From Candidatus Saccharimonadota bacterium (lineage in GTDB: Archaea; Micrarchaeota; Micrarchaeia; Micrarchaeales; Micrarchaeaceae), in NCBI GenBank assembly GCA_963698035.1, contig OY969114.1, forward strand, positions 540,001 through 572,000: a DNA stretch of 32,000 bases, read 5' to 3'. Below are positions 3,627-31,301 of this stretch, one piece after another (position 1 is the stretch's first letter; each line of letters starts with the position of its first letter). Made by a program: the position numbers and the translations under genes. The notes under the pieces were generated by a model. The model saw only the letters and a list, made by a program, of their open reading frames with translations. It did not search any database and was not told where the DNA came from.

Positions 3627-3733
3627 GCGGGGGTGGCAGAGCTTGGCCAAATGCGCAGGACTGAGGTGCGGAAATCCCGCTCGGAACTCCTGTGTCTTTA
3701 GTGACTGCGTGAGTTCAAATCTCACCCCCCGCA
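3627..3733 (+). tRNA. tRNA-Leu(GAG) with a 20-nt canonical-position (37/38) intron; no encoded CCA
   Basis: The acceptor stem is GCGGGGG(3627-3633)/CCCCCGC(3726-3732) with discriminator A3733. The anticodon stem is CAGGA(3656-3660)/TCCTG(3688-3692), with anticodon GAG at 3663-3665. There is a long variable arm (3693-3708) and a T-arm GTGAG-TTCAAAT-CTCAC (3709-3725). The intron (3667-3686) forms hBHBh': a central helix CTGA(3661-3664)/TCGG(3681-3684), 3-nt bulges at 3665-3667 and 3685-3687, and an inner helix GCGG/CCGC. Confidence 0.88.
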
Positions 3734-7030: not shown

Positions 7031-7077
7031 AGATTAAATAATGTATACATGGATGTATTTTTAGATGGTTGGTTTTG

Positions 7078-7917
7078 ATGGGGGATGCGCTTAAGGATGA
7101 TACCAAGCCGCAGGGCGTAAAGCAGCAATCTGCGATCGAATTTATGGTAACCTACGCATGGGCGATACTGCTCATGGCGGTCCTTTTATCTCTCCTCTAC
7201 TTCTTCGTCATAGCCCCCTATTCGATAAGCCCGTCGAGCTGCAGCTTCGTGACGCAGCTCACCTGCAAGGCTGTAATACTCGGCACCAACGCCATGACGC
7301 ACAACACCATCCTGACGCTGCTCGTCACCAACTCGCAGCAGTATCCGATTGAAGGGCCCGCGCTCTTCGCCAACATAAACGGCGTGAACACCAGCAACAC
7401 AATCTGCACACCGTACTTCGTTCCGGCGGGGGGGCAGTTCCTCTGCCAGCTGACCTTGCCGGTAAAGACGAACATAAACTCGTTCGAGTCTGGCTACACA
7501 TACCTCAACGCCTCTAACTGCGGCTTCTCGCCCACTTATTCGGCGTCCTCCTGCTCAGCGTCCAGGCCAGTCACGTACGCCGGAAGCTTCAGCGCCAAGG
7601 CGCAGCCAGTATTCTCGCTCGGAGGCAACGCGATAAGTGTCACCATTACGTCTAACTTGAGCGCGCAGTACCTCAATGAACCCGTAACGCTCAATGGAAC
7701 CGTACAGCTTTTGGGCACTTACCTGCAGGGTGCGACTGTCAACTTCACCGAAAATTCAGTGATTCCAGTAATAACGCCGAGATACGCTACTACGGACGGT
7801 GCAGGATTGGCATACAGCCAGATCATGAGCGCTCTCCCAACTACTGTTGTGGTCACCGCCTCCGTACTTGGAATCACCTCAAATGGAATCTCAATAACGT
7901 TCACCACGGCACCATAG
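7078..7917 (+). CDS. Class III signal-peptide (archaeal type IV pilin-like) protein with a C-terminal Ig-like beta-sandwich region
   Basis: A short charged leader is followed by 'QSAIEFMVTYAWAILLMAVLLSLLYFFV' (Q+1, E+5, hydrophobic helix). A Cys-containing globular domain is paralogous to those of 8054, 22353 and 23009. The C-terminal pattern '...VTLNGTVQLLG..GATVNFTE...TTDGAGLAY...VVVTASV' resembles Big-type domains. The ATG at 7078 is preferred to the TTG at 7069. Confidence 0.7.
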   Translation: MGDALKDDTKPQGVKQQSAIEFMVTYAWAILLMAVLLSLLYFFVIAPYSISPSSCSFVTQLTCKAVILGTNAMTHNTILTLLVTNSQQYPIEGPALFANINGVNTSNTICTPYFVPAGGQFLCQLTLPVKTNINSFESGYTYLNASNCGFSPTYSASSCSASRPVTYAGSFSAKAQPVFSLGGNAISVTITSNLSAQYLNEPVTLNGTVQLLGTYLQGATVNFTENSVIPVITPRYATTDGAGLAYSQIMSALPTTVVVTASVLGITSNGISITFTTAP

Positions 7918-7963
7918 TCGGGTGAGGCAGCAATGCATGGCATATTTCAACTACCTTCTCAAA

Positions 7964-8053
7964 ATCCTCTTTCTACCGCTTCTGAAAGGCCTGCAACTGG
8001 CGGTAGCCATTTTATAACTTAGCTCATATCAGATAACACAACCGAGTGATTGC
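7964..8053 (+). promoter_or_regulatory. Conserved intergenic module (repeated at 22919-23008), including TATA-like ATTTTATAAC (8009-8018) and the leader 'ACACAACCGAGTGATTGC' before the start codon
   Basis: I aligned it by eye with 22919-23008 at a constant offset of 14955, roughly 85% identical. The TATA-like box lies about 40 nt upstream of the ATG at 8054. 'GAGTGAT' is a possible Shine-Dalgarno-like element. Confidence 0.5.
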
Positions 8054-9673
8054 ATGGCCAGATGGATCAGGGCGCAGAGCGCAATGGAGTATCTCACCAC
8101 GTACGGTTGGGCCATATTGATAATCGGCGTGGTTATCGCGCTTCTTGCAGCTATGGGGGTGTTCAGCCCCAACACCTATGTAAGCAATAGCTGCCTGCTG
8201 CCTGCCCAATTCCGCTGCATCACCGCAGTCCTCTCGGCCAACGGAATACTTTCCATCTCCATGCAGCAGAACACCGGCGATCCGATAAATGTTACCGCGC
8301 TCTACTGCAACAGCGGGCAGTCGATACCGACAAACACGTTAGCCATAACTAAGAAGTATCCTGGCATAGGCGGAAACGCCATCTATCTCGGCATAGGCGG
8401 AAACGCCACCTTCTCAGTACCATGCTTCCTCAGTTCGAACACGGAGTTCAGCGGCACGATAGGGACCATTTATCAAGGTTACCTGTTAATAAACTACACA
8501 GACATACCTACCTCTTTCATGTACACAACTGCCGGCTCTTTGGTGCTGAAGGTCGCGCAGGTGTCCACCACATCCATCATAGCCTCCCTCTCTTCCACTT
8601 CAATCTCCACCTCCATCTCCTCCACCACCCTTAAATCCTCTACAACCACTACAACTATACCTTATGTCCCTCTAACGTTGACAAATTCGCAAAGCACAGC
8701 CACATCTTCAAACTTCCAGCAGAGTGTAACCGTTACACCGAGTGCCTGCTCTGGATGTTACCCATACATAAACGCCAACTGGTCGAATGTCGAGTTCAGC
8801 ACCGGAGTCGGATCGAGTGGTCCGAGCGGCCCATTAGATGCATGGATAGAGAGCGGGGCAAGCAATACAGCCGCAAGCACACTCATCTGGGTCAATCTGA
8901 CCTCGAGTACAATAGCAGGAAGCGGAGGAACCCTCACAATATATATGAGCTTCATGCCGACTACTTCTCCTGTGACAAGTGGTTATACCGGCTACGCCCC
9001 ACAGTTCTTCTGTGCAAGCGGCTGTGCGCAAACCAGCTATGGTCAGTATGACAATGGGGAGAGTGTATTCACATACTACCAGCCTTTCGGCGGCCTTTCA
9101 ACCCTGCCTACAGGCTGGACACTGAGTGCAGGTGCAGACACGTTTTTGGCTAATTATACCACCATCAATGACATCGGCACCACGAGGGCAGGCTTATACT
9201 CGAATGTAGTATCAACAGAGCAAGTAAGCAACTTCCCAGTCAATATTGATGTATTCTCGAACCTCACACGGGGTGTGGTAGGCTCCGGAGCTGACGTGGG
9301 TGAATTTGGCTTGAGCTCAGGAACCATGACATCATCAACTTGTGGTATAGCTTATTATACGATTGTGGGAGTGACAAGTGCAAACAAGATAATAACTTGT
9401 ACTAAGAGCACGACCACAACCGGGAACACCGTAAGCTCATTGATACCCCAAGTATACTCTTTATATATACCGAGCAATTTAAGCTTCTCCGGGCTTTTCT
9501 CATACAGCAATCCAATAACAGGAACTATAACCGCTGTAGGTTCAGGAAATGATATCAAACAGTCAATAACAACATCATCCAACACTGTAAGTATGCCAAT
9601 ATATTGGATAAGGACAAGGGAACCTCCTCCAAACAATATCCAGCCCGCAGTCAGCTTCGGCTCTTTTGTCTAG
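8054..9673 (+). CDS. Class III signal-peptide protein: pilin-like N-domain + Ser/Thr-rich linker + large DUF2341/LamG(ConA)-like lectin-type C-terminal region (putative pilus-borne adhesin)
   Basis: The N-terminus is 'MARWIRA|QSAMEYLTTYGWAILIIGVVIALL' (R at -2, A at -1, Q at +1, E at +5). The linker is 'VSTTSIIASLSSTSISTSISSTTLKSSTTTTT'. The following region, 'IPYVPLTLTNSQSTATSSNFQQSVTV...NVEFS...LDAWIESG...STLIWVNL..IAGSGGTLTIYMSF...YDNGESVF', matches the DUF2341 pattern as I remember it. By my count there are at least 8 N-x-S/T sequons. Confidence 0.75.
   Translation: MARWIRAQSAMEYLTTYGWAILIIGVVIALLAAMGVFSPNTYVSNSCLLPAQFRCITAVLSANGILSISMQQNTGDPINVTALYCNSGQSIPTNTLAITKKYPGIGGNAIYLGIGGNATFSVPCFLSSNTEFSGTIGTIYQGYLLINYTDIPTSFMYTTAGSLVLKVAQVSTTSIIASLSSTSISTSISSTTLKSSTTTTTIPYVPLTLTNSQSTATSSNFQQSVTVTPSACSGCYPYINANWSNVEFSTGVGSSGPSGPLDAWIESGASNTAASTLIWVNLTSSTIAGSGGTLTIYMSFMPTTSPVTSGYTGYAPQFFCASGCAQTSYGQYDNGESVFTYYQPFGGLSTLPTGWTLSAGADTFLANYTTINDIGTTRAGLYSNVVSTEQVSNFPVNIDVFSNLTRGVVGSGADVGEFGLSSGTMTSSTCGIAYYTIVGVTSANKIITCTKSTTTTGNTVSSLIPQVYSLYIPSNLSFSGLFSYSNPITGTITAVGSGNDIKQSITTSSNTVSMPIYWIRTREPPPNNIQPAVSFGSFV
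8642..9118 (+). repeat. 477-bp block that appears 100% identical to 23599-24075 (direct orientation, offset 14957)
   Basis: I compared the two blocks base by base by eye. The alternative-frame ORFs 8755-9051, 8758-8955 and 8834-9031 have peptides identical to their counterparts at 23712-24008, 23715-23912 and 23791-23988. Confidence 0.9.
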
Positions 9674-9835
9674 CGAGCGCAGAGCTTGAACTGTCCAGAG
9701 TCCTCTTCCTACTGCTCCTGAATGGCCTGAAAGATACCTGTTGCCTCTGAAGAACTTGGAGAAGAATTCCACGTAGGTAAGCCTTGCGCCTTGTATCCCG
9801 GAGTCAAGAGTGTAATTAGGAAGGTCACACACTAG

Positions 9836-10714
9836 TCATACTGGCACAAGAAGCAGCAGTATCACATTGCCAAGGAGAATAGAAGCCACTACGCCCACAA
9901 ATATCGGCGCAGCTAGCGGAATCGCATTCTTGTAGACCGGTATCTTCAATGTTATTCTCTTGCCCCTGAGCTGACCTATCAGCCTCTTTGTTGCGAGCCT
10001 GTCGAATCCCTTTACTTTGGCGCGCATCCTATCTATGGCGCTCCGCGTCATCAGGTTTATCGCTATCATGTCTCCTTCCTCAATCCCCTTATAGTTGAGG
10101 TATTTCACCATGGACATGGTAATCGGCTTTTCGAAGAGTACGACAGAAACGGAGCCGAGCATCATCAGTATAAGAAGAGCTATCCCCGCAACGCCCACGC
10201 CAACCTCAAAGATGAGGAAAGCGGCAAACACGAGATAGACTGCACCTACAGCAAGCGCCTTAAGCAGGTCCTTCCTCCCTATTTCCTTACCTATCCGCAT
10301 GCCCCTCACCTTCGCTCTTGGTATATAATACAAAGGAACCGCGACAAGTGCGGCGATGCCGCCGCCCATGAAGACCGAGACTATGAACGGTATGCCAAAT
10401 TGTGGTATGTTAAAGAGAAGCGGCACTGCCTGGAACGGCAGTATGAGCGACAGCGCAGCAAACTCGAAGACGTCACCCGCTCCCAGGTAACCAGCTCTGT
10501 ATACAAGGTATCCGAGGCCCAATACTACCGTCGCTATTACGACGCTGAAGGCTATCGCAGAGGCGTTTAGGTACAGTACCGTAAGAAGGAGTCCGTACGC
10601 CACACTTCCATATGCGAATAGCTCCGGAATATTCCTCTTGTTGAAGAGGTCGAAGAGCATATATACTAGCGCGATAGCCACGAGGCTTACAAGCCTGAGC
10701 ACCAGTAACTCCAT
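9836..10714 (-). CDS. A24-family aspartic prepilin/preflagellin peptidase (PibD/FlaK/EppA-like)
   Basis: The two catalytic-Asp motifs are at canonical spacing: D22 in 'YMLFDLFNKRNIP' and D81 in 'YLGAGDVFEF' (GxGD). It is a polytopic membrane protein with a soluble insert (residues ~200-250), as in FlaK. It lies adjacent to class III signal-peptide genes. Confidence 0.82.
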   Translation of the reverse strand: MELLVLRLVSLVAIALVYMLFDLFNKRNIPELFAYGSVAYGLLLTVLYLNASAIAFSVVIATVVLGLGYLVYRAGYLGAGDVFEFAALSLILPFQAVPLLFNIPQFGIPFIVSVFMGGGIAALVAVPLYYIPRAKVRGMRIGKEIGRKDLLKALAVGAVYLVFAAFLIFEVGVGVAGIALLILMMLGSVSVVLFEKPITMSMVKYLNYKGIEEGDMIAINLMTRSAIDRMRAKVKGFDRLATKRLIGQLRGKRITLKIPVYKNAIPLAAPIFVGVVASILLGNVILLLLVPV

Positions 10715-22352: not shown

Positions 22353-22856
22353 ATGTTGAAACCGTTTCATGAATATCTGAAAAGTGGCGGGGTGCTGGGC
22401 CAGTCTGCCATGGAAAACCTTATCACCTACGCATGGGCGATATTAATTATGGCAATCGTTCTCGGAGTGCTCTTTGCTCTCGGAGTCTTCAGTCCCGGTA
22501 CCTACATAAGCGATACGTGCGCTCTGCCGGCCGGATTTGAGTGCCAGTCATCCATGCTCGCAACCAATGGGCTGCTGACATTCACTGTGGTGCAGTTCAC
22601 CACCACTCCTATAGTGCTGACCGCAGTTGGCTGCAGCTCAAACCAGTCGACCCTCTACAACACCCCCCTCTCGCCGAAGGAAGGGCTCGAGATAGGTGGC
22701 AATGCAACCCTTACGACATTCTGCTACCAGGGTAGCACAATATTCAAAGGCGGCATAGGCTCCGTCTATCACGGTTATCTGGTAATAAACTACACGAACA
22801 ACGTCACGGGCTTGCCGTATCTTGCAGGAGGTGCAGCAGTCTTCAAGATAAAATAG
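22353..22856 (+). CDS. Class III signal-peptide (type IV pilin-like) protein, pilin domain only
   Basis: The N-terminus is 'MLKPFHEYLKSGGVLG|QSAMENLITYAWAILIMAIVLGVL'. The globular part is highly similar to 23009-23500 and shares long identical nucleotide runs. The ATG at 22353 lies 5 nt after the MoxR stop; the track start at 22185 would overlap MoxR. Confidence 0.75.
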   Translation: MLKPFHEYLKSGGVLGQSAMENLITYAWAILIMAIVLGVLFALGVFSPGTYISDTCALPAGFECQSSMLATNGLLTFTVVQFTTTPIVLTAVGCSSNQSTLYNTPLSPKEGLEIGGNATLTTFCYQGSTIFKGGIGSVYHGYLVINYTNNVTGLPYLAGGAAVFKIK

Positions 22857-22918
22857 ACCTTCTCCACCCACAATATCAATAACCTCCACCTGGCTGATCA
22901 AGCCTGAACCCGCTCAAC

Positions 22919-23008
22919 ATCACTTTCCTGCTGCTCTTGAAAGGTCTGCAACCGATGGCAGCTATTTTATAACTTAACTAATATCACATAACACAACCGA
23001 GTGATTGC
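22919..23008 (+). promoter_or_regulatory. Second copy of the conserved intergenic module, with TATA-like ATTTTATAAC at 22964-22973
   Basis: It aligns with 7964-8053 and has the same spacing to the start codon. Confidence 0.5.
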
Positions 23009-23500
23009 TTGGCCAGATGGGTAAGGGCGCAGCACGCCATGGAATACCTTGTCACCTACGGATGGGCGATCCTCATCATCATGATAGTCCTGGTCGTGCT
23101 CCTCGTTCTTGGCTTATTCAGTTCCGGTACCTACGTAAGCGATACTTGCACGCTGCCAAATGGATTTGAGTGCCAGTCATCCCTTCTCGTTACAAACAAC
23201 GGTCTTCTTACATTCACTGTGGTGCAGTATACCGGCACTCCTATAGTGCTGACCGCAGTTGGCTGCAGCTCAAACCAGTCGACCCTCTACAACACTCCTC
23301 TCTCGCCTCCGGAAGGGGTTGAAGTAGGAGGCAGTGCAACCCTTACGACAAGTTGTTACCAGGGTAGCACAATATTCAAAGGCGGCATAGGCTCCGTCTA
23401 TCACGGTTATCTGGTAATAAACTACACGAACAACGTCACGGGCCTATCGCATCTTGCGGTAGGCGCAGTAGTCTTCAAGGTCAAGGCGGTATCACCATAA
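23009..23500 (+). CDS. Class III signal-peptide pilin-like domain; N-terminal portion of a frameshifted paralogue of 8054-9673
   Basis: The N-terminus is 'MARWVRA|QHAMEYLVTYGWAILIIMIVLVVL'. The start codon is TTG where the paralogue has ATG. The ORF ends ('KVKAVSP*') exactly where the paralogue enters its Ser/Thr linker. Confidence 0.7.
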   Translation: MARWVRAQHAMEYLVTYGWAILIIMIVLVVLLVLGLFSSGTYVSDTCTLPNGFECQSSLLVTNNGLLTFTVVQYTGTPIVLTAVGCSSNQSTLYNTPLSPPEGVEVGGSATLTTSCYQGSTIFKGGIGSVYHGYLVINYTNNVTGLSHLAVGAVVFKVKAVSP

Positions 23501-24624
23501 TTACTACTACCCTTCTCTCTGCCTCGACCTCCGTCACCACCACCTCCATTAAATCCTCCACCACCCTAAAATCCTCCTCCACCACCCTAAAATCCTCCAC
23601 AACCACTACAACTATACCTTATGTCCCTCTAACGTTGACAAATTCGCAAAGCACAGCCACATCTTCAAACTTCCAGCAGAGTGTAACCGTTACACCGAGT
23701 GCCTGCTCTGGATGTTACCCATACATAAACGCCAACTGGTCGAATGTCGAGTTCAGCACCGGAGTCGGATCGAGTGGTCCGAGCGGCCCATTAGATGCAT
23801 GGATAGAGAGCGGGGCAAGCAATACAGCCGCAAGCACACTCATCTGGGTCAATCTGACCTCGAGTACAATAGCAGGAAGCGGAGGAACCCTCACAATATA
23901 TATGAGCTTCATGCCGACTACTTCTCCTGTGACAAGTGGTTATACCGGCTACGCCCCACAGTTCTTCTGTGCAAGCGGCTGTGCGCAAACCAGCTATGGT
24001 CAGTATGACAATGGGGAGAGTGTATTCACATACTACCAGCCTTTCGGCGGCCTTTCAACCCTGCCTACAGGCTGGGCATTTTCAGGCACTGCCTCCAATG
24101 TGGTGTTTGCCACCAACGACCTTACCATAATTGGCACTGGAACTACCAGGGTGAACTTATATTCAAATGTTGTATCAACAGAGCAAACAGTCAACTTCCC
24201 AGTTGATATTGATACATTGGCGAACTTCACGCTGCCAGTCTCGCAAATATTCGGCACAGGATTTGTTTTAGAAGGACCAACGCTTGCGACATCAGGATGC
24301 CCCGTGAATACGTACGCGGGGACGTATATTAGAAGCTCTAGTGTTGTCACAGTTTGCTCTGATGCTAAGATAAGGTCTGGCAATGTCGTATCATTGGTGA
24401 CGCAGGTTTGGACCACCTATATACCGAACACAGCATCTTTAACGAGCTATGCATCCTATACTAATCCGAAAACAGAAGCCATAAGCGCACCGACGGCAAA
24501 TGATGTTTATCAAGTATTCACAACACAAAACAGTATAATACCATCACTGATATATTGGACAAGAACAAGGACGCCGCCGCCAAACAATATCCAGCCCGCA
24601 GTCAGCTTCGGCTCTTTTGTCTAG
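23493..24624 (+). CDS. Ser/Thr linker + DUF2341/LamG-like region; continuation of 23009-23500 in another frame (no signal peptide of its own)
   Basis: This frame is open from 23368. It reads '..TIITTTLLSASTSVTTTSIKSSTTLKSSSTTLKSSTTTTTIPYVPLTLTNSQ...', colinear with 8054-9673. The span 23009-24624 is 1616 nt, which is 539 codons minus 1 nt. The track ORF (TTG at 23635) covers only the distal part. Confidence 0.65.
23551..23604 (+). repeat. Tandem 18/21-nt coding repeat (KSSTTL / KSSSTTL / KSSTT..) in the Ser/Thr linker
   Basis: The units 'aaatcctccaccacccta', 'aaatcctcctccaccacccta' and 'aaatcctccacaacc' follow one another. The paralogue at 8617-8650 has a single unit. Confidence 0.8.
23599..24075 (+). 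repeat. 477-bp block identical to 8642-9118
   Basis: See the entry for 8642-9118. Confidence 0.9.
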
Positions 24625-24677
24625 CAAGCTCAGAGCTTGAACCTGTCTAAAGTCCTCTTCCCGCTGCGATTTGGGAG

Positions 24678-26105
24678 TCAGCCCTTGGTGACTCCAAGGG
24701 GAACCATGCGCGCCACAATGTCCGATATTTTCGCCGCTTGTATGGTAGATACCACAGCGTCAACATCCTTGTAGACCCACTCAGCCTCCTCGCTCACCAG
24801 CTTATTGCTCCTCACCCTCATCTCTATGCCCTTCCTCTTCATCTCGTCCAGCGTCCTTGATGACGGAATCTCGCGCAGCGCCTGGTGCCGTGACATTACC
24901 CTGCCAGCTCCGTGGCAGGATGAGCCGAAGGTCTCAAGCATGCTCTCCTTCCTTCCTGAGAGTACGTAGCTCGCGGTCCCCATGCTGCCTGGAATGAGGA
25001 CAGGCTGCCCATGCGACCTATAGAGGGGCGTCACCTCCTGCCTGTCAGGCCCGAAAGCCCTGGTCGCCCCCTTCCTGTGAACATAAAGCTTCATCCTCTT
25101 CCCGTCAACAACGTGCTCCTCGAGCTTTGCGGTATTGTGGCAGAGGTCGTAGACAAGCTCCATCCCAAGCTCTTCTGCGCTTTTGCCGAACGTGTCCGCG
25201 AAGCTCTTCCTTATGAAGTGGGTCATTATCTGCCTGTTCACGAATGCAAAGTTTATCGCAGAGCACATCGCGGCCCAGTAGCTCTCAGCCTCCCTGCTGT
25301 CTATGCGGGCGTAGCCCAGCTCCGGGTCCGGAACGCTTATGTTGTTCCTCTTCTGGTAGTCAATGAGGATCCTTAGGTAGTCGCTGCAGATCTGGTGACC
25401 GTAACCGCGCGAGCCGCTGTGCAGCATCACCACCACCATATCCTTCTCAAGCCCGTAGAGCTTTGCTATTTTATCATCCAATATCTTGTCCACCTTCTGC
25501 ACCTCCGCGAAGTGGTTGCCTGCGCCGAGCGTGCCAAGCTGCTGCATGCCCCTCTTCTTCGCAAGGTCGCTGACTATCTCATAATCCGCTCCCTTCATAT
25601 GGGTCCCTTCCTCGACCCTCTCAGGATCGTTAGGGAAGCCGTAACCCCTCTCCACTATGTAGCCTACACCCTCTGTGGCTATCATTCTGAGGTCCTTATG
25701 GGTGAAGCCAAGCTGCATCTTACTTCCAACACCACTTGGCACGTTCCTAAACATTGCATCCATCAGGGTCTTTATCTTTGGCTTGAGCTCCTTCTCGGTT
25801 ATGTTCGTCTTTATCAGTCTTACCCCGCATCCGATGTCAAAGCCTATGCTACCAGGAGAGAGTATTCCGTCATCTGCATCGAATGCCGCCACTCCACCTA
25901 TCGGGAAGCCGTAGCCCTCGTGGCCATCCGGCATTACAAGCATGTTCTTTACTATCGAGGGGAGGCACGCCGCGTTGGCTGCCTGCCTCAGCGTCCTGTC
26001 TTTTTTCATATTCTCCATTATTGCAGAGTTTGCATATACCCTCACAGGAACCTTCATGTCACCCTCCTTTCCAAGCTCCCAGAGGTAATTATTTATCTTT
26101 TCCAT
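24678..26105 (-). CDS. rtcB: RNA-splicing ligase RtcB (3'-phosphate/5'-hydroxyl RNA ligase)
   Basis: 475 aa. It carries 'MPDGHEGYGFPIGGVAAFD', 'GAGNHFAEVQ', 'LHSGSRGYGHQ', 'CHNTAKLEEH' and 'SCHGAGR'. I see no intein. Confidence 0.97.
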   Translation of the reverse strand: MEKINNYLWELGKEGDMKVPVRVYANSAIMENMKKDRTLRQAANAACLPSIVKNMLVMPDGHEGYGFPIGGVAAFDADDGILSPGSIGFDIGCGVRLIKTNITEKELKPKIKTLMDAMFRNVPSGVGSKMQLGFTHKDLRMIATEGVGYIVERGYGFPNDPERVEEGTHMKGADYEIVSDLAKKRGMQQLGTLGAGNHFAEVQKVDKILDDKIAKLYGLEKDMVVVMLHSGSRGYGHQICSDYLRILIDYQKRNNISVPDPELGYARIDSREAESYWAAMCSAINFAFVNRQIMTHFIRKSFADTFGKSAEELGMELVYDLCHNTAKLEEHVVDGKRMKLYVHRKGATRAFGPDRQEVTPLYRSHGQPVLIPGSMGTASYVLSGRKESMLETFGSSCHGAGRVMSRHQALREIPSSRTLDEMKRKGIEMRVRSNKLVSEEAEWVYKDVDAVVSTIQAAKISDIVARMVPLGVTKG

Positions 26106-26343: not shown

Positions 26344-28059
26344 TCATTTTTTGTAATACAGTTTTAAATTTACGAACGACTGCGGCAGGAAAGTCTGCTG
26401 CATCGGTAGCGGAATGCCGTAAGTCGAAAGGTTTCCAATAATCGGATCGAGAACAAGTTGCCAGTTCGAGCAATTGTTGTTTACGAAATCAACCCAAGTA
26501 TAGTTGGAGTTGAGAACCCAACCTGTACCATTGAACACCGGATACGGACCCGAATTAAGTATTGCATATGATCCATTTGGCGCCGCTACGCAGAAGCTAC
26601 CATTCGCACCGTATAAGTAAAATCTGCTGAGGTTGTCGAAGTGCATGTAGATCATAGGCGTGTCGGGAAATCCAGATTGGTAATAGATGGGTGTGTTGTT
26701 CGGCAGCGCCTGCAGGTAGTTTGCTATCGGTGCGTTGCTGTAGAGCTGGTATTCATTGGACAAGTAGTTGTATACGTCAACCACAAACGCATTCTCAAGC
26801 AGCGCTAGCACTACAAGCCCGGCTATCGCACCCCAAACAATTTTCCTTGTTCTGCTGCGTGCCGATTTAACAAAGCTCACCGCTCCCATGGCAAGTAGTA
26901 TGGCTGTGGGCACCGCAAGAAGCATCAGGTACCTCGGGAGCTTTGGTGGAGTTGAATAGCTAAGCAAATTGAGGCTTATCGTGTTCGGGCCTATTGTAAG
27001 ATAAGCTAGTATGAAAATAATCCATGCAATGAAGAAGTAAGAGCTCTTCTCCTTTCTGAGCAAGAGATACAGGCTTACCGGAATCACTGCATAGAAGTAG
27101 AGACCTGCCTGGTTAATGTTGTAATCATATGTGCTAATAAAATAAGTTATCTGAGAAAGAGTCGACAGGCTGCCGCTCTGTAGCATTGCGACAATCTTAT
27201 ACGGAAACATATAAGGCAGGTAGTAACCGAATTCCAAAAACTCAGATGGGGCCCCGGCAGTCTGGGCATAACCATAAAGGCTTTGAAACTCCCAAAGTGG
27301 ATTCCCCGAGCCAGAAAGGAAATAACCGGCAATCAAAACTATCACAATCCCCAAGGCTATCCCGGCAACAGCAAATCCCACCTCTTTCAACGAAATCTTT
27401 TTGCATGAGGCCAAGAATACAGTGCACAGGAGCAAGAATACAATGAATTCGATGCTCTGTGGAGTAGCAAAAACGGAAAGTACAGCAACGGTCCCCGCCG
27501 TGAAGAGCCATTTTCCTGACTTGTATCTGATGCCGAGCAGAAATGCTAGGGCCATCAGCGCAGTCATGAACATCATTATTGTGTCATCGTCTACCGTTGT
27601 AGCGTAGGTCACAACTACTGGTGAAAGCGCCACCAATGCAGCAGCCAGAAGCCCCACTTTGTAGTCGTACATTTCTTTTGCCAGAAAGAATGTGATTGAC
27701 ACTGTGAGTAAATATGCTAGCACATTCCACATTGCACTCTGTACAGGTCCCGGCCCAAAGATGTAATCAAAAAAGGCTATAGGTACATTAACCATGAACC
27801 TAGAGAGGAGCAACGGCGGCAGTGTATATCCCGGAAGTGCTGTGTACGGGGAGTAGCCTGCTGATAAAGCATATCCTATCGCGGAATAGTACCAGTCGTC
27901 GCCTTCACTAGAAGGGCCTATAAAATATACCGCAGAGAAAACAACCGTGAATGCCAGGATTGCAGCAAGGCCAACATATCCTATTACTTCAGCGTTTTTC
28001 TTACTTTGACCCAAATGTCTTCGAAGCCCCTTCTTTTTCTTACTGCTATTTGCAATCAT
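26344..28059 (-). CDS. GT-C fold membrane glycosyltransferase, ArnT/PMT_2 (GT39/GT83-like) family
   Basis: 571 aa. A basic N-terminus and first TM helix are followed by the acidic loop 'SSEGDDWYYSAIGYAL', like the DE/DD motif of the first extracytoplasmic loop. There are ~12 TM helices and a C-terminal soluble domain with several N-x-S/T sites. Confidence 0.65.
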   Translation of the reverse strand: MIANSSKKKKGLRRHLGQSKKNAEVIGYVGLAAILAFTVVFSAVYFIGPSSEGDDWYYSAIGYALSAGYSPYTALPGYTLPPLLLSRFMVNVPIAFFDYIFGPGPVQSAMWNVLAYLLTVSITFFLAKEMYDYKVGLLAAALVALSPVVVTYATTVDDDTIMMFMTALMALAFLLGIRYKSGKWLFTAGTVAVLSVFATPQSIEFIVFLLLCTVFLASCKKISLKEVGFAVAGIALGIVIVLIAGYFLSGSGNPLWEFQSLYGYAQTAGAPSEFLEFGYYLPYMFPYKIVAMLQSGSLSTLSQITYFISTYDYNINQAGLYFYAVIPVSLYLLLRKEKSSYFFIAWIIFILAYLTIGPNTISLNLLSYSTPPKLPRYLMLLAVPTAILLAMGAVSFVKSARSRTRKIVWGAIAGLVVLALLENAFVVDVYNYLSNEYQLYSNAPIANYLQALPNNTPIYYQSGFPDTPMIYMHFDNLSRFYLYGANGSFCVAAPNGSYAILNSGPYPVFNGTGWVLNSNYTWVDFVNNNCSNWQLVLDPIIGNLSTYGIPLPMQQTFLPQSFVNLKLYYKK

Positions 28060-28290: not shown

Positions 28291-29037
28291 ATGTTATCAG
28301 CGCTGATTAAGATGTATGATCTGGTAGTTGTGATACCCACGCACAACGAAGAGAGGTTCATAGGCGAGGCTCTGGACGGAGTTAACAAAGCCGTGTCAAA
28401 GTTGTTTAGCAAATACATTATAGCAGTGGCGGATGCCGTTTCTGTAGATTCCACAAGGGACATAGTCGAAAGGGCAGCAGCGAAGAACAGCAACATCAAG
28501 CTTGTAAAATACCCAAAGGCCGGAAGGGTCGGTCACGACATAATGCACACGATGCTGAAGTACAAGGCCAAGCTGTACTTCTACCTTGATGTTGACCTGC
28601 TGCCCAGCCTCAAGCACCTCGGTGTTGCTTTGAAGATGGAAAAGTGTGGATGTGATTTGGTGATCGGAACGAGGTACGCCCCATCAAGCAGGACAACTAG
28701 ACCGCGGCTCAGGCATGTCGCTTCAAAAATCTATAATAAGCTAGGAAATTTGCTCTGGAACGAGAAAATAACCGATCATGGCTGCGGTTTTAGGATTTTT
28801 GACGGAGAGGCGTTCGAAATAATAGCAAAAAGTTCAAGAGAGGAACACTGGGCGTGGGACAAAGAAATACTTCTCATAGCCAGAGAGAATGGCTTCAAGA
28901 TCTGCGAGGTGCCTATCCTATGGGTGGAAAGGCGCTCTGGAAGGACACCTATAAAGAGGCTTGCCGGAGATACTGTATATGAAGGTCTGGCGCTGCTGCG
29001 GCTGTTTTGGAGGTTCAGGATCAGCAACTGGTCTTGA
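28291..29037 (+). CDS. Family-2 glycosyltransferase, polyprenyl/dolichyl-phosphate sugar synthase-like (DPM1/GtrB/ArnC type)
   Basis: It carries 'DLVVVIPTHNEERFIGEAL', the DxD-like 'FYLDVDL', and 'GCGFRIF...EILLIARENGFKICEVPILWVER'. It is 248 aa with no TM anchor. Confidence 0.8.
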   Translation: MLSALIKMYDLVVVIPTHNEERFIGEALDGVNKAVSKLFSKYIIAVADAVSVDSTRDIVERAAAKNSNIKLVKYPKAGRVGHDIMHTMLKYKAKLYFYLDVDLLPSLKHLGVALKMEKCGCDLVIGTRYAPSSRTTRPRLRHVASKIYNKLGNLLWNEKITDHGCGFRIFDGEAFEIIAKSSREEHWAWDKEILLIARENGFKICEVPILWVERRSGRTPIKRLAGDTVYEGLALLRLFWRFRISNWS

Positions 29038-31069
29038 ATATCCTTATCACACTCGAGGAGCTGTCAGTGGCGTTGTACACTTCCTGGAAATTGGGCGAAT
29101 TCAAGAATCTGCTCTGGTTCATCGGCTCGCAGTTATACTGCGAGCCCTTCTGCGTTATGTTCTCTATTACCACGTAGCTTATATTGTACTGATTAATCAA
29201 GCCACAACTCGGGGCTAAGAAGAAACTGTTTATTGCCTGGCTGGCGCTGTTCGGATTGAAGTTGGGCTGGTTTATGCCATTGTTATAATTGTATGTATAG
29301 ATATCCAGAACCGTGCTCCTTCCCGCTATCGTACCCACAAAATCTTCCGTATAAACATAACAGTTAGACTGGAATATCGCATGGGGCGACGTGTTATTTA
29401 TTATCCAAGCGCTCGCGCTTATCTCAAGTGGTGTGGCTATCGTGTAAGGGCAGGCCAGTATGCACCAGTCAGCAAGCCATCCGCTGAAAGTTGCAAGGAA
29501 AAAGAGCGCTACCACAAGGACCTTCAGTGGTAAGCCGCGCCACCCTTTCTTCCATGTAAACATCTTGTAGAGCAGGAGAGTCGCGGCAAGGGCCAGGAAA
29601 AGGACAAACCACAGAGTTATCTTGTTGTTGTCCCCACCTGAGGGCTGCAAACTGTAAATATTAATTATAATGAAAGTTATAATAGCAGGTGCGAAAGCGA
29701 TAAAATTGGCCTTTCTGAAATATATGAAACCTATAACTCCGAGAGGCAGCGTTATGCCTATGGCCTCGAGCCAGAACTCTAGGTGCGCTATGAGGATCCC
29801 CCAGGGCGCAAGGTTTTGTGAATACCAATAATTCATATTTATTATCTGTGAGATAAACCCAGAATCCAGATGCTGTGACAGTATGTAAAAGACCAGGGGC
29901 AGTGCAATTGCTATGGCTATGGCTCCAAATACAATCCACGGCCAGACCCTGCGTTTTATCTCTACCATATTTATCCTGCCCCACTTCCTCAGCATGGAAT
30001 AGACAAACAGAACCGCGCAGAACACAAGAAGGAACTCTAGCGATACTGGATGTATGAGTGGCATGAGGCCTGTCAGGAGGCCGAGAAATGCCAGCGAAGC
30101 AAGCGACTTAGTTTCAAGCTTTTTCTTGATGGTGCCAGGTTCGAGGAACAGCATGTAAAGAGCAGAGATTATGACCAGCGCATAAGGGAAGCCGAGCAGA
30201 TAGTCATTCTGGATCACAAGATTCCCCTCAAATGGGTCTGTGAAGTTGAAGTAGGAAGAAGTTAGGAGACCACTGAAGTTTTGCTTACCCATGCTCTGTA
30301 TCAGTGTTGCTGGCATATTTGACGGCCCCCAGTTAAAATAATACCAGATGACGAAGTTGAAGCCCAAGCTGAAGAACAGGAACATCAATATTGCGACAGC
30401 CGATATTTTGTAGTTTTTGCATAGAAGGGTTAGGAAAAACATGAGCATACCTGCAAGCGAGAACCACAACAAGAATTTCATCGCATTGAATGCCCAGACT
30501 ATGCTGAAGCCGTTATAGAACAGGATTGCAGAGTAAAAGTCCGTTATGAAGGGAAAAACAGTTTTGGCACCATAGGAATAGGGATAAACCGGGGGAAAAC
30601 CCGTGTATATCAGCGACTGCCCGTAACCGAGATGGGCTAAAAGGTCCCCGCCGTAGTTTGAGCTCGCCAATACGGTGCCGTTCGCGCTATAGCTGAGGGC
30701 AAATGCCTGGAAAATAATCAGCATTGCAGCCAGCGCAAATATGCATGCATGGAGGCCTTTGCTTTTGCGTATCTCCGAGACAAACCCCTTTATGCTGAAT
30801 GGGTTGCTCTTCGACCTATTCAGCAGACAGTACGAAAGGAGCGCCTCAATCACTACAACAATCACGAGCGTCCAATCGAGGAAAACGCCGTTTATCACCT
30901 CTAGGGCCAGCACCATGTAAGCAGAAATCGCAAACCCGATCGGTATTCCGGCAGCGTACTGGAATATCCTCTTGTTTAAAAATCTGGAAAGGAAAAAGTT
31001 TACCAGGACTATGCCGAACACTATGCTGGCAACATAGAAAGCGATCCCCAGTAGTGGCGTAAGTAACAT
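29021..31069 (-). CDS. Large polytopic membrane protein with C-terminal soluble domain, GT-C-like (putative lipid-carrier-dependent glycosyltransferase); family uncertain
   Basis: ~682 aa from the ATG at 31069 ('MLLTPLLGIAFYV'), with more than 12 TM helices. An early loop reads 'SSNYGGDLLAHLGYGQSLIYTGFPPVYPYSYG'. A TATA-like 'TATTTAATTTAT' (minus strand, ~31087-31098) sits about 25 nt upstream. The 40 aa before that in the track ORF look non-coding. The 3' end overlaps the GT2 gene by 17 nt. Confidence 0.5.
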   Translation of the reverse strand: MLLTPLLGIAFYVASIVFGIVLVNFFLSRFLNKRIFQYAAGIPIGFAISAYMVLALEVINGVFLDWTLVIVVVIEALLSYCLLNRSKSNPFSIKGFVSEIRKSKGLHACIFALAAMLIIFQAFALSYSANGTVLASSNYGGDLLAHLGYGQSLIYTGFPPVYPYSYGAKTVFPFITDFYSAILFYNGFSIVWAFNAMKFLLWFSLAGMLMFFLTLLCKNYKISAVAILMFLFFSLGFNFVIWYYFNWGPSNMPATLIQSMGKQNFSGLLTSSYFNFTDPFEGNLVIQNDYLLGFPYALVIISALYMLFLEPGTIKKKLETKSLASLAFLGLLTGLMPLIHPVSLEFLLVFCAVLFVYSMLRKWGRINMVEIKRRVWPWIVFGAIAIAIALPLVFYILSQHLDSGFISQIINMNYWYSQNLAPWGILIAHLEFWLEAIGITLPLGVIGFIYFRKANFIAFAPAIITFIIINIYSLQPSGGDNNKITLWFVLFLALAATLLLYKMFTWKKGWRGLPLKVLVVALFFLATFSGWLADWCILACPYTIATPLEISASAWIINNTSPHAIFQSNCYVYTEDFVGTIAGRSTVLDIYTYNYNNGINQPNFNPNSASQAINSFFLAPSCGLINQYNISYVVIENITQKGSQYNCEPMNQSRFLNSPNFQEVYNATDSSSSVIRIFKTSC

Positions 31070-31301
31070 AATCTTCCTTTCGGGATAAATTAAATACGCA
31101 GTATTATAATTGTTGTTTTTAATTAGGATGCGCCCTTGCCGATCAGCCCGCTTGAAGCGGACTGCACTTACAATACCAATTGATATCACTTGATGTTATT
31201 TAATATATATCATCAGATTTTTAGGTGGTTTTTATTCGTTTTGCTGTGTAGCTTTTATCGTGGGAGAAGGCTTAAATAACAGAGAAGGCGAAGATGGTGT
31301 G

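What the first reader, a model, noticed from the sequence alone, without database searches (positions are those of the whole stretch)
8642..9674. Mosaic paralogues: a diverged ~500-bp segment bracketed by perfectly identical blocks (cassette-like architecture)
Gene 8054-9673 and its paralogue 23009-24624 lie in direct orientation about 14.95 kb apart. Their similarity is strongly non-uniform. The promoter and leader are ~85% identical. The pilin domains are clearly diverged (roughly 40% aa identity by eye). Then 477 bp are identical (8642-9118 = 23599-24075), covering the end of the Ser/Thr linker and the first half of the lectin-like region. Next comes a diverged distal segment (9119-9628, 510 nt, versus 24076-24579, 504 nt); its proteins align but differ heavily after '..LYSNVVSTEQ..'. 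Finally 46 nt are again identical, spanning the last codons and the stop (9629-9674 = 24580-24625). Identical blocks flanking a variable block are the footprint of recent gene conversion. This is also the geometry used by recombination-based surface-variation systems such as the bacterial pilE/pilS type. Essential genes (leuS, topA, r-proteins) lie between the copies, so only non-reciprocal exchange would be tolerated.
Basis: partly seen in the sequence, partly recalled or inferred. Interest (0 to 1): 0.68.

Follow-up and report, generated by a model that had tools for sequence, protein, structure and literature searches.

The report
Recombining pilin–lectin adhesin gene pair
Two copies of a pilus-tip "sticky protein" gene in a tiny symbiotic archaeon (Micrarchaeota) were recently pasted over each other in their conserved parts while their variable half stayed different, a known way of keeping and reshuffling surface adhesins that I found no report of for archaeal pilins.

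Summary
Positions 8642-9118 equal 23599-24075 (477 nt, no mismatch) and 9629-9674 equal 24580-24625 (46 nt). They bracket a 510/504-nt segment that is about 53% identical. Column shuffles never give a run above 39 nt.

One correction: copy B is not one ORF. Its pilin part (TTG start) stops at 23500, and the lectin part continues in the -1 frame after a 1-nt deletion.

The genes encode archaeal modular type IV pilins: class III signal peptide, pilin domain, Ser/Thr linker and an L-type-lectin-like (DUF2341-related) module. Synonymous divergence is saturated everywhere except in the identical blocks. An equally conserved protein segment, the signal/helix, is only 64% identical in DNA. So recent non-reciprocal recombination, not protein constraint, explains the blocks.

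The block edges coincide with the family-wide conserved/hypervariable boundaries. Other Micrarchaeota paralogue pairs show the same but older mosaic. In one related lineage, alleles at a fixed locus keep about 98% identical flanks around unrelated variable segments, and one variable segment appears at two loci.

This is bab-like or pilE/pilS-like in geometry, but defining pilE/pilS features are absent: there are two promoter-bearing copies and no G4 motif. No switching could be shown for this genome.

Verdict: gene conversion is supported and a programmed cassette system is unproven. Interest is moderate.

The parts
7069..7917 (+). Upstream pilin-like gene (282 aa). It has a class III signal-peptide/helix motif (QSAIEFMVTYAWAIL) and an Ig-like C-terminal module.
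   Evidence: ORF and translation. Weak Pfam Big_1 match, E 9e-5, below the gathering score. Repeat family D7 links its N-terminus to the other pilins.
7958..8053 (+). Promoter and leader of copy A. TATA-like TTTTATAA lies at 8010-8017 and the SD-like GAGTGATTGC at 8044-8053. The region is 81% identical to 22913-23008.
   Evidence: TTTTATAA occurs only twice in the window, once at each copy.
8054..9673 (+). Copy A, an intact 539-aa modular archaeal type IV pilin. It comprises a class III signal peptide and hydrophobic helix, a pilin globular domain (to about aa 170), a Ser/Thr linker (about aa 171-200) and an L-type-lectin-like / DUF2341-related module (about aa 200-539).
   Evidence: ORF. Homologues are Micrarchaeota proteins. 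AF2 model with pLDDT 72. Foldseek best hits are Emp46p, ERGIC-53, VIP36, legume lectins and GH16, E about 1e-5. 12 of 26 family members hit Pfam DUF2341, but the window protein itself does not.
8642..9118 (+). Identical block 1 (477 nt; the tract at 99.6% identity runs 8617-9118). It covers the end of the linker and the family-conserved N-terminal half of the lectin module (…IPYVPLTLTNSQ … SGYTGYAPQ … YDNGESVF … LPTGW).
   Evidence: Family conservation is 0.59. pS is 0.
9119..9628 (+). Variable segment of copy A (510 nt). It is the family-wide hypervariable C-terminal half of the lectin module. GC is 43%, against about 51-53% in the pilin parts and the identical block.
   Evidence: Identity to B is 53% in DNA and about 40-42% in protein, with dS 1.21 and dN/dS 0.47. 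Family conservation is 0.30. The B variable segment is its only detectable relative. GC.
9629..9674 (+). Identical block 2 (46 nt). It covers the conserved C-terminal strand (PPNNIQPAVSFGSFV) and the stop codon. A 3' UTR at 83% identity follows, to 9715.
   Evidence: Family conservation is 0.66.
9836..10714 (-). Prepilin (class III signal) peptidase gene next to copy A.
   Evidence: Pfam Peptidase_A24, E 3e-6, above the gathering score.
22353..22856 (+). Pilin-only paralogue B0 (167 aa), in tandem with B. It ends (…FKIK*) where the pilin domain ends.
   Evidence: It is 80% identical in protein to the B pilin part. dS is 0.46 and dN/dS 0.30.
22913..23008 (+). Promoter and leader of copy B. TTTTATAA lies at 22965-22972 and the SD-like element at 22999-23008.
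23009..23500 (+). Copy B pilin part (163 aa, TTG start). It is terminated by TAA after a 1-nt deletion near 23490-23493.
23473..24624 (+). Copy B linker and lectin module, in the -1 frame relative to its pilin part. The frame is open stop-to-stop (23368-24624), but it has no start codon before an internal TTG at 23635 and no signal peptide. It is therefore probably untranslated.
   Evidence: No X XXY YYZ slippery site or homopolymer is present at the shift (sequence read).
23599..24075 (+). Identical block 1 in copy B.
24076..24579 (+). Variable segment of copy B (504 nt, no stop codons, GC 45%).
24580..24625 (+). Identical block 2 in copy B. Homology continues to about 24667.

Best explanation
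A and B are old paralogues of a Micrarchaeota adhesin gene. The protein is a modular type IV pilin whose C-terminal module is an L-type-lectin-like (DUF2341-related) beta-sandwich. [quoted passage not shown]

The two copies diverged to saturation at synonymous sites. Since then, RadA-type homologous recombination has copied sequence non-reciprocally between the loci. The most recent event covered about 500 bp (8617-9118). A separate event homogenised about 46-120 bp at the 3' end. Older or weaker homogenisation is visible at the promoter/leader and in a small island around 'LYSNVVSTEQ'.

The tracts are confined to the parts of the gene that are conserved throughout the family. Two reasons are likely. 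Only those parts retain enough identity to start and propagate strand exchange. Converted variable halves may also be selected against, since keeping two specificities is useful.

The same conserved flanks are the natural crossover sites for swapping the hypervariable half. Such swaps between alleles and between loci are seen in a related lineage, so the family evolves as scaffold plus exchangeable variable cassette.

I read this as opportunistic recombination plus diversifying selection, like H. pylori babA/babB, and not as a dedicated high-frequency switching machine. Copy B currently carries a frameshift and a TTG start. At present it would yield only a pilin-sized product, and its lectin module would be an untranslated but still open copy.

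Shown: identity pattern, divergence statistics, fold, family conservation, and mosaics elsewhere. Inferred: adhesin role, direction and timing of conversion, and selective maintenance of the variable halves.
For: In the window:
- The identity pattern and its statistics.
- Nei-Gojobori estimates. Pilin globular part: dS 1.36, dN/dS 0.41. Variable segment: dS 1.21, dN/dS 0.47. Block: pS about 0.
- Control segment. The signal/helix is as conserved in protein as the block (0.65 versus 0.59) but is 64% identical in DNA with pS 0.80.
- The block edges match the family-wide conserved/hypervariable boundaries.
- The A and B variable segments are each other's only detectable relatives, so they are true paralogues and not separate imports.

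Protein identity:
- Lectin fold and the DUF2341 link.
- A prepilin peptidase gene lies next to A.
- DUF2341 proteins in archaeal T4P loci are predicted tip adhesins (PMC4858521).
- Lectin-module pilins are described in S. sanguinis (PMC9934059, abstract) and lectin-like minor pilins in Saccharibacteria (PMC11623550).

The same mosaic in other genomes:
- L016 pair: third-position identity reaches 0.90 in the block, falls to 0.2-0.47 in the variable part and is 0.79 in the tail.
- L073/L015 pair: tail 0.8-0.9.
- L014/L037 pair: pilin and block up to 100% identical per 20-codon window, variable part about 0.35.

Related lineage:
- Loci X, Y and Z share only a 445-465-nt block (86-93%) and a 59-74-nt tail.
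- A 191-nt identical tract lies inside the block between X27 and Z35.
- Locus-X alleles have 97.8-98.1% identical upstream sequence and block, an unalignable variable part of about 450-550 nt, and then 88-90% identity in the tail and downstream sequence.
- Allele Y19 equals Y17 up to about 80-100 nt into the block. From there it is 99.2% identical to X29 over 1,422 nt (12 mismatches), through the variable part, the tail and 360 nt downstream.
Against: - There is a single genome and no reads. Perfect identity could be exaggerated by consensus collapse of near-identical repeats.
- No other strain of this organism exists in the searched collections. Neither conversion direction nor any exchange of the variable part can be shown here.
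- Most within-genome paralogue pairs in other Micrarchaeota have a saturated pS in the conserved block (0.65-0.89). Conversion is therefore sporadic. Fragmented MAGs would, however, under-represent identical repeats.
- The related-lineage evidence comes from short-read metagenome assemblies in which chimeric joins are possible.
- The adhesin and host-binding role is inferred from fold and context only. The window protein itself misses the Pfam DUF2341 threshold.
Confidence: 0.72

Rival explanations
1. A dedicated two-locus switching system, as an archaeal analogue of pilE/pilS or of expressed/silent msp2 or vlsE cassettes. Copy A, next to the prepilin peptidase, is the expression site. The untranslated but open lectin module of B is a silent donor. 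The 477-nt and 46-nt identical flanks are maintained so that the variable half can be swapped at high frequency within a population, changing host-binding specificity.
For: - B's lectin module is out of frame yet free of stops over more than 370 codons.
- Identical flanks sit exactly at the variable-segment borders.
- In a related lineage the same variable segment occurs at two different loci, and fixed loci carry unrelated variable segments between conserved flanks.
- Essential genes lie between the copies, so only non-reciprocal events survive.
Against: - Only two copies come from the 776-kb source contig.
- B keeps its own TATA box, SD-like element, start codon and a pilin domain under purifying selection (dN/dS 0.30 against B0). 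It is not a promoterless 5'-truncated cassette.
- No G4 or other recognisable initiator is present.
- The frameshift is a plain 1-nt deletion with no repeat tract, so it is not reversible phase variation.
- Most paralogue pairs in other genomes lack homogenised flanks.
- No recombinant of this genome could be observed.
Confidence: 0.12
2. An assembly or consensus artefact. The two copies are merely similar in the conserved block, for example 90-97% identical. The assembler or polisher collapsed them to one consensus, producing perfect identity and possibly also the 1-nt indel in B.
For: - Identical repeats of about 0.5 kb exceed short-read length.
- Several related MAG contigs break or branch inside these genes. 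L037 1-127 is 100% identical to L074 4758-4884, both at contig ends. L001 and L002 end less than 400 nt after the gene.
- The B frameshift lies in low-complexity linker DNA about 110 nt upstream of the block.
Against: - Even a collapsed 90-97% block would still be far above the 55% background and the saturated dS of the flanks, so conversion would still be required.
- The order of the two direct repeats with 15 kb of unique genes between them is the only linear path through such a graph (inference).
- Both loci are embedded in a 776-kb contig.
- Analogous blocks at 86-93% identity are assembled separately in other lineages.
Confidence: 0.1
3. Strong purifying selection on the conserved half of the lectin module, or codon constraints, alone explains the identity without any recombination.
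For: The identical blocks coincide with the most conserved protein segments of the family.
Against: - All synonymous sites are identical over 153-166 aligned codons, while dS exceeds 1 elsewhere.
- The equally conserved signal/helix segment has pS 0.80.
- Other genomes' paralogues with the same protein conservation have pS 0.65-0.89 in this block.
Confidence: 0.01

Closest known systems
Helicobacter pylori babA/babB/babC adhesin paralogues (PMC4552749)
   Same: These are paralogous glycan-binding adhesin genes at separate chromosomal loci. Their N- and C-terminal parts are nearly identical and the middle region, thought to set the adhesin function, is divergent. Intragenomic homologous recombination (gene conversion) between loci makes chimeras and moves variants between loci. 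Some copies are out of frame.
   Different: The Bab proteins are bacterial outer-membrane proteins, not pilins. Their out-of-frame state is reversible through CT-repeat slippage, whereas copy B here has a simple 1-nt deletion with no repeat. Exchange is experimentally and epidemiologically documented for bab, whereas here it is only inferred. In the window the pilin (N-terminal) part is also diverged.
Neisseria pilE/pilS pilin antigenic variation (PMC2188579, PMC3547852)
   Same: A type IV pilin gene receives non-reciprocal transfer from a non-expressed copy elsewhere on the chromosome, and conserved segments flank the variable ones.
   Different: Neisseria has many promoterless, 5'-truncated silent copies, a G4-forming sequence with a cis-acting sRNA as initiator, and high frequency. 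The window has two copies, each with its own promoter and start codon, and no G4 motif. Here the variable part is a lectin module fused to the pilin, not the pilin head itself.
Modular type IV pilins with lectin modules: Streptococcus sanguinis PilC (PMC9934059) and Saccharibacteria PilX1 (PMC11623550)
   Same: A pilin N-terminal module is fused to a C-terminal lectin-like module that mediates or is proposed to mediate glycan binding. In Saccharibacteria this occurs in an ultrasmall episymbiont, and the PilX1 model resembles L-type lectins.
   Different: Those examples are bacterial. The passages I read from these papers do not mention paralogue gene conversion or a hypervariable half-module. 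The window protein has an archaeal class III signal peptide and a DUF2341-related module.
DUF2341-domain proteins of archaeal type IV pilus loci, predicted PilY1-like tip adhesins (Makarova et al. 2016, PMC4858521)
   Same: The domain family is the same by transitive homology: 12 of 26 relatives hit PF10102. The association with T4P genes is also the same, since a prepilin peptidase gene is adjacent.
   Different: The window protein does not itself reach the Pfam threshold. The passage found in that paper does not mention mosaic or recombining paralogues.
Concerted evolution of prokaryotic paralogues by gene conversion, e.g. archaeal mtrA copies (PMC4632066) and the prokaryote-wide survey (PMC6053082)
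   Same: Homologous recombination keeps parts of paralogues identical within a genome, including in archaea.
   Different: Judging from their abstracts, those cases homogenise whole functional domains of housekeeping genes. Here homogenisation brackets a segment that stays highly divergent in a surface protein.

Membership tests
Neisseria-type pilE/pilS antigenic variation | One expressed locus plus multiple promoterless, 5'-truncated silent copies | tested here: not met
   Only two lectin-module copies come from the 776-kb source contig. Copy B has a TATA box, an SD-like element, a TTG start and a complete pilin domain.
Neisseria-type pilE/pilS antigenic variation | Specialised cis initiator (G-quadruplex with sRNA promoter) upstream of the expressed gene | tested here: not met
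   No (G3+N1-7)x4 motif occurs on either strand anywhere in the window. Other, unknown initiators cannot be excluded.
Neisseria-type pilE/pilS antigenic variation | Observed non-reciprocal transfer of variable segments into the expression locus at high frequency | not testable with these tools
   No reads are available, and no second strain exists in the protein or contig collections.
Neisseria-type pilE/pilS antigenic variation | Conserved sequence blocks flanking the variable segments in all copies | tested here: met
   The 477-nt and 46-nt identical blocks bracket the variable segment.
bab-like recombining adhesin paralogues (functional analogy only, not homology) | Paralogues at separate loci with near-identical flanking parts and a divergent ligand-specifying middle | tested here: met
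   In the window, however, the N-terminal pilin part is also diverged.
bab-like recombining adhesin paralogues (functional analogy only, not homology) | Chimeras, and the same variant found at different loci among strains | tested here: inconclusive
   This is not observable for the window's organism. It is seen in a related Micrarchaeota lineage: X29 and Y19 are 99.2% identical from the block to the contig end, and locus-X alleles carry replaced variable parts. Those data come from short-read metagenome assemblies.
Archaeal type IV pilin (class III signal peptide protein) | N-terminal positively charged leader, a [KR][GA]|Q-type cleavage context and a hydrophobic alpha-helix; a cognate prepilin peptidase | tested here: met
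   The N-terminus MARWIRAQSAMEYLTTYGWAILIIGVVIALL is predicted as helix 4-33. The motif is conserved in 541 confirmed related loci. A Peptidase_A24 gene lies at 9836-10714. Cleavage itself was not tested.
Pfam DUF2341 (PF10102) / concanavalin-A-like lectin fold | Significant match to the family model | tested here: inconclusive
   The window protein has no Pfam hit at E<=0.01. 12 of 26 aligned homologues match PF10102, best E 3.4e-9.
Pfam DUF2341 (PF10102) / concanavalin-A-like lectin fold | Beta-sandwich (L-type lectin-like) three-dimensional fold | tested here: met
   The AF2 model has pLDDT 72. Foldseek gives probability 1.0 hits to Emp46p/Emp47p, ERGIC-53, VIP36, legume lectins and GH16, with TM-score on the target of 0.5-0.6. 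Confidence is lower (pLDDT about 50-70) in the variable half.
Diversity-generating retroelement target | A nearby reverse transcriptase and a template repeat differing from the variable repeat mainly at adenines | tested here: not met
   No reverse transcriptase was found among the 19 window ORFs scanned against Pfam; the smaller ORFs were not scanned. The A/B variable segments differ at about 47% of positions of all kinds, with indels.
Programmed -1 ribosomal frameshift gene | Slippery heptamer X XXY YYZ at the frame junction | tested here: not met
   The junction sequence GTC AAG GCG GTA TCA CCA TAA has no slippery site or homopolymer.

The most novel reading that the evidence does not exclude
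The pair is a working two-cassette host-recognition switch of a DPANN symbiont. The untranslated but intact lectin half-module at locus B serves as a silent donor, or acceptor, for the expressed pilus adhesin at locus A. Gene conversion through the 477-nt and 46-nt identical flanks changes which glycan or host the Micrarchaeon binds. As far as I could find, this would be the first recombination-based surface-variation system described in Archaea.
Probability: 0.12. Interest if true: 0.8.

Novelty: new member of a known kind. Interest (0 to 1): 0.48.

Why it matters
Micrarchaeota and other DPANN archaea live attached to host archaea, and how they recognise hosts is unknown. This locus points to a concrete candidate: pilins carrying a lectin module whose distal half is hypervariable. 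That half is bracketed by scaffold sequence which recombination keeps identical between paralogues, and in a related lineage it is swapped between alleles and loci.

If the variable half sets host or glycan specificity, host range becomes testable. One could compare variable cassettes with host identity across samples, or express the modules for glycan arrays.

It would also extend recombination-driven adhesin diversification to archaeal symbionts. This process is well known in bacterial and protozoan pathogens. In the eight literature searches I ran, I found no report of it for archaeal pilins.

There is a practical point as well. These genes break and tangle metagenome assemblies, so they are likely under-reported in MAGs.

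Tried and rejected
- **Exact-protein look-up of copy A.** Nothing on record in public assemblies, so provenance and population context are unavailable.
- **Two scans of JGI metagenome contigs.** I used an exact 30-mer at the block/variable junction and a degenerate 47-nt pattern for YDNGESVFTYYQPFGG. Both gave zero hits, so no strain comparison is possible.
- **PDB sequence search with the family profile.** No hit at E<=1. Only the fold comparison was informative.
- **Pfam on the window proteins.** No family for A, for either B part, or for B0.
- **Programmed -1 frameshift or slippage to rescue B.** Rejected: no slippery heptamer or homopolymer, and the linker repeat units are 18-21 nt, so they stay in frame.
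- **G-quadruplex initiator.** None in the window.
- **DGR-type mutagenesis.** Rejected.
- **rtcB fragment at locus A as a duplication scar.** Rejected: homology ends at 9715/24667, before rtcB's stop at 24678.
- **Independent acquisition of the two variable halves from different lineages.** Rejected: they are each other's only detectable relatives.
- **Intrinsic terminator in the conserved 3' UTR.** None found by the bacterial-type scan, which is not really appropriate for archaea.
- **Genome-collection scan.** It was seeded on the pilin N-terminal motif, so many of the 80 loci are pilin-only genes. 29 sources (28 fetched loci and the window) carry the lectin block.
Full report
**1. The observation**

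Exact comparison confirms that 8642-9118 equals 23599-24075 (477 nt) and that 9629-9674 equals 24580-24625 (46 nt), with no mismatch. The homologous unit is a whole gene with its promoter and 3' UTR: about 7958-9715 against about 22913-24667, in direct orientation, 14.95 kb apart.

Identity by segment:

| Segment | Identity |
|---|---|
| Promoter/leader 7958-8053 | 81% |
| Signal peptide and helix 8054-8167 | 64% |
| Pilin globular part 8168-8560 | 51% |
| Tract 8617-9118 | 99.6% |
| Variable segment 9119-9628 | 53% |
| Block 9629-9674 | 100% |
| 3' UTR 9675-9715 | 83% |

With background identity 0.55, the longest identical run in 2000 column shuffles was 39 nt, against 477 observed. leuS, S3Ae, topA and other housekeeping genes lie between the copies.

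**2. A correction to the finding**

Copy B is not one ORF.
- Its pilin part starts with TTG at 23009 and ends at a TAA at 23498-23500.
- The linker and lectin module continue in the -1 frame. That frame is open from 23368 to 24624, but it has no start codon before an internal TTG at 23635.
- Relative to A, one base is missing: GTATC-ACC against GTGTCCACC.
- There is no slippery heptamer or homopolymer at the shift. The linker repeats are 18-21 nt, so they stay in frame. Neither programmed frameshifting nor slippage-type phase variation is indicated.

Both copies keep TTTTATAA (8010-8017 and 22965-22972, the only two occurrences in the window) and an SD-like GAGTGATTGC just before the start.

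A pilin-only paralogue, B0 (22353-22856), lies in tandem upstream of B. It ends exactly where the pilin domain ends. B0 against the B pilin part gives dS 0.46 and dN/dS 0.30. The truncated B product could therefore still be a functional plain pilin.

**3. What the genes encode**

The closest relatives are all from Micrarchaeota / DPANN MAGs, at 45% identity or less. Only the two window ORFs come from the 776,853-bp source contig.

The N-terminus (…RAQSAMEYLTTYGWAILII…) is an archaeal class III signal peptide followed by a hydrophobic helix. A Peptidase_A24 prepilin peptidase gene lies right after copy A.

An AlphaFold2 model (pLDDT 72) shows three parts: a helix with a small beta domain, a disordered Ser/Thr linker (172-199), and a large beta-sandwich. 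Foldseek matches the sandwich to L-type lectins (Emp46p/47p, ERGIC-53, VIP36, legume lectins) and to GH16 enzymes. Twelve of 26 homologues hit Pfam DUF2341, but the window protein itself does not.

Three papers give context.
- DUF2341 proteins in archaeal T4P loci have been proposed as PilY1-like tip adhesins (PMC4858521).
- Modular pilins with lectin modules are described in S. sanguinis (PMC9934059, abstract).
- Lectin-like minor pilins are described in episymbiotic Saccharibacteria (PMC11623550).

So this is a modular pilin-lectin adhesin. Host binding is an inference.

**4. Why the identity means recombination**

Nei-Gojobori estimates:

| Segment | dS | dN/dS |
|---|---|---|
| Pilin globular part | 1.36 | 0.41 |
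| Variable segment | 1.21 | 0.47 |
| Block | pS 0 over 153 codons | – |

The duplication is therefore old. Both copies evolved under purifying selection for most of their history.

The family alignment shows that the identical blocks coincide with the conserved parts of the family (conservation 0.59 and 0.66). The diverged segment coincides with a family-wide hypervariable stretch (0.30).

Protein constraint cannot explain the DNA identity. The signal/helix segment is as conserved in protein (0.65), yet it is 64% identical in DNA with pS 0.80. In other genomes, paralogue pairs have pS 0.65-0.89 in the same block.

The A and B variable halves are each other's only detectable relatives. They are diverged paralogous sequence, not separate imports.

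The simplest history has several steps. An old duplication was followed by a recent conversion tract of about 500 bp. A separate short tract formed at the 3' end. Older partial homogenisation occurred at the promoter and in a small island around LYSNVVSTEQ, where pS is 0.23.

**5. Is it a family property?**

Twenty-eight of the fetched Micrarchaeota loci carry the lectin block, often as tandem arrays of two or three genes. Most paralogue pairs show no homogenisation. Three independent genomes do show the same mosaic in older form:
- L016 pair: third-position identity up to 0.90 in the block, 0.2-0.47 in the variable part, 0.79 in the tail.
- L073/L015 pair: tail 0.8-0.9.
- L014/L037 pair: pilin and block up to 100% identical per 20-codon window, variable part about 0.35.

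A screen of all protein pairs for discordant segments led to one related lineage, sampled in several ENA assemblies and one MAG. It has at least three loci, X, Y and Z, in different housekeeping contexts.
- The loci share only a 445-465-nt block (86-93% identical) and, in some pairs, a 59-74-nt tail. This is the same geometry as in the window.
- A 191-nt perfectly identical tract lies inside the block between X27 and Z35.
- At locus X, alleles with 97.8-98.1% identical upstream genes, N-terminal module and block carry unalignable variable segments of about 450-550 nt. They regain 88-90% identity in the tail and downstream sequence (X29/X32 and X27/X30; X29/X42 share the downstream 183-aa gene).
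- Allele Y19 is identical to Y17 up to about 80-100 nt into the block. From there it is 99.2% identical to X29 over 1,422 nt (12 mismatches), through the variable part, the tail and 360 nt of downstream flank.

So the variable half is replaced between conserved flanks at a fixed locus. One cassette also occurs at two loci.

Caveat: these are short-read metagenome assemblies and the contigs tend to end near these genes. The longest identical run between Y17 and X29 is 75 nt, which is shorter than the final k of 141. This argues against a purely in-silico chimera but does not exclude one.

**6. Mechanism and comparison**

The best reading is opportunistic RadA-type gene conversion confined to the conserved scaffold, combined with diversifying selection on the variable half. 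The same flanks serve as crossover sites for occasional cassette exchange.

The closest analogue in behaviour is H. pylori babA/babB/babC. Those genes have near-identical ends and a divergent middle, undergo gene conversion between loci, form chimeras and include out-of-frame copies (PMC4552749).

The pilE/pilS comparison holds only for geometry. The defining features fail: there are not many promoterless truncated donors, and there is no G4 initiator. High frequency could not be tested.

Gene conversion between archaeal paralogues is itself known (PMC4632066, PMC6053082). Elevated non-synonymous SNP density in hypothetical cell-surface proteins and in a pilus-machinery gene (a FlaJ/TadC homologue) has been reported for Nanoarchaeota (PMC6142677). 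I found no report of recombining pilin-lectin paralogues in archaea.

**7. Verdict**

- Observation: confirmed, with the correction that B is frame-disrupted.
- Interpretation: partly supported. Gene conversion is supported, a 'pilE/pilS-type' system is not shown, and cassette exchange is supported only in a related lineage.
- Novelty: new member of a known kind.
- Interest: moderate (0.48).
- The more exciting reading is that B's untranslated lectin module is a silent donor in a working switch. It is not excluded. I put it at about 0.12.

Noticed in passing
window 3627-3733 (+): Rfam tRNA match (44.9 bits) spanning 107 nt, probably an intron-containing archaeal tRNA. ARAGORN with its default settings found no tRNA anywhere in the window.
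   Followed up: no
window 26344-28059 (-): A 571-aa membrane protein with a PMT_2 (dolichyl-phosphate-mannose protein mannosyltransferase-like) domain lies about 1.7 kb downstream of copy B. It is a candidate for glycosylating the Ser/Thr-rich pilin linkers.
   Followed up: no
window 8618-8649 versus 23536-23606: The Ser/Thr linker contains an 18-21-nt repeat unit (TCCTCCACCACCCT[T/A]AAATCCTC…, encoding SSTTLK). It is present once in A and three times in B, and the 5' end of the identical tract lies inside this repeat.
   Followed up: partly
window 9119-9628 and 24076-24579: Both variable segments have clearly lower GC (43% and 45%) than the pilin parts and the identical block (51-53%) and than the window average (49.6%).
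   Followed up: no
window 23009: Copy B uses TTG where copy A has ATG, in an otherwise identical context (GATTGC[A/T]TGGCC). This is a second possible sign of reduced expression of B, besides the frameshift.
   Followed up: partly
window 29021-31189 (-): A 722-aa ORF with no Pfam family at E<=0.001. It was not examined further.
   Followed up: no
P0040 versus P0043 (= L006 923-2608); L025 1264-3012 versus L060 3926-5611: These are inverse mosaics. The variable half is 85% (respectively 72%) identical in protein, while the pilin domain (49%, 48%) and the conserved block (57%, 42%) are much more diverged. The same variable cassette therefore appears on different scaffolds in different MAGs. The segment boundaries were set automatically.
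   Followed up: partly
L074 4758-4884 = L037 1-127 (100%); L074 4386-4542 versus L014 1-157 (97.5%); all from MAG FK3.bin83: Contigs of this MAG end and overlap inside pilin-lectin genes. The 127-nt overlap lies at the ends of L074 and L037. This shows that the assembly graph branches within these genes, so such genes are probably under-represented or fragmented in MAGs.
   Followed up: partly
L083 3740-4690, L084 251-1201, L088 249-1199: In the related lineage a radA/Rad51-family recombinase gene lies four genes upstream of lectin locus X. This is probably coincidental.
   Followed up: no
L089 and L090 (both from sample ERZ27237460): Two locus-X alleles (P0030 and P0032) with unrelated variable segments co-occur in one sample. 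Their flanks are about 89% identical, so they represent two co-existing strains or species rather than one switching population.
   Followed up: partly
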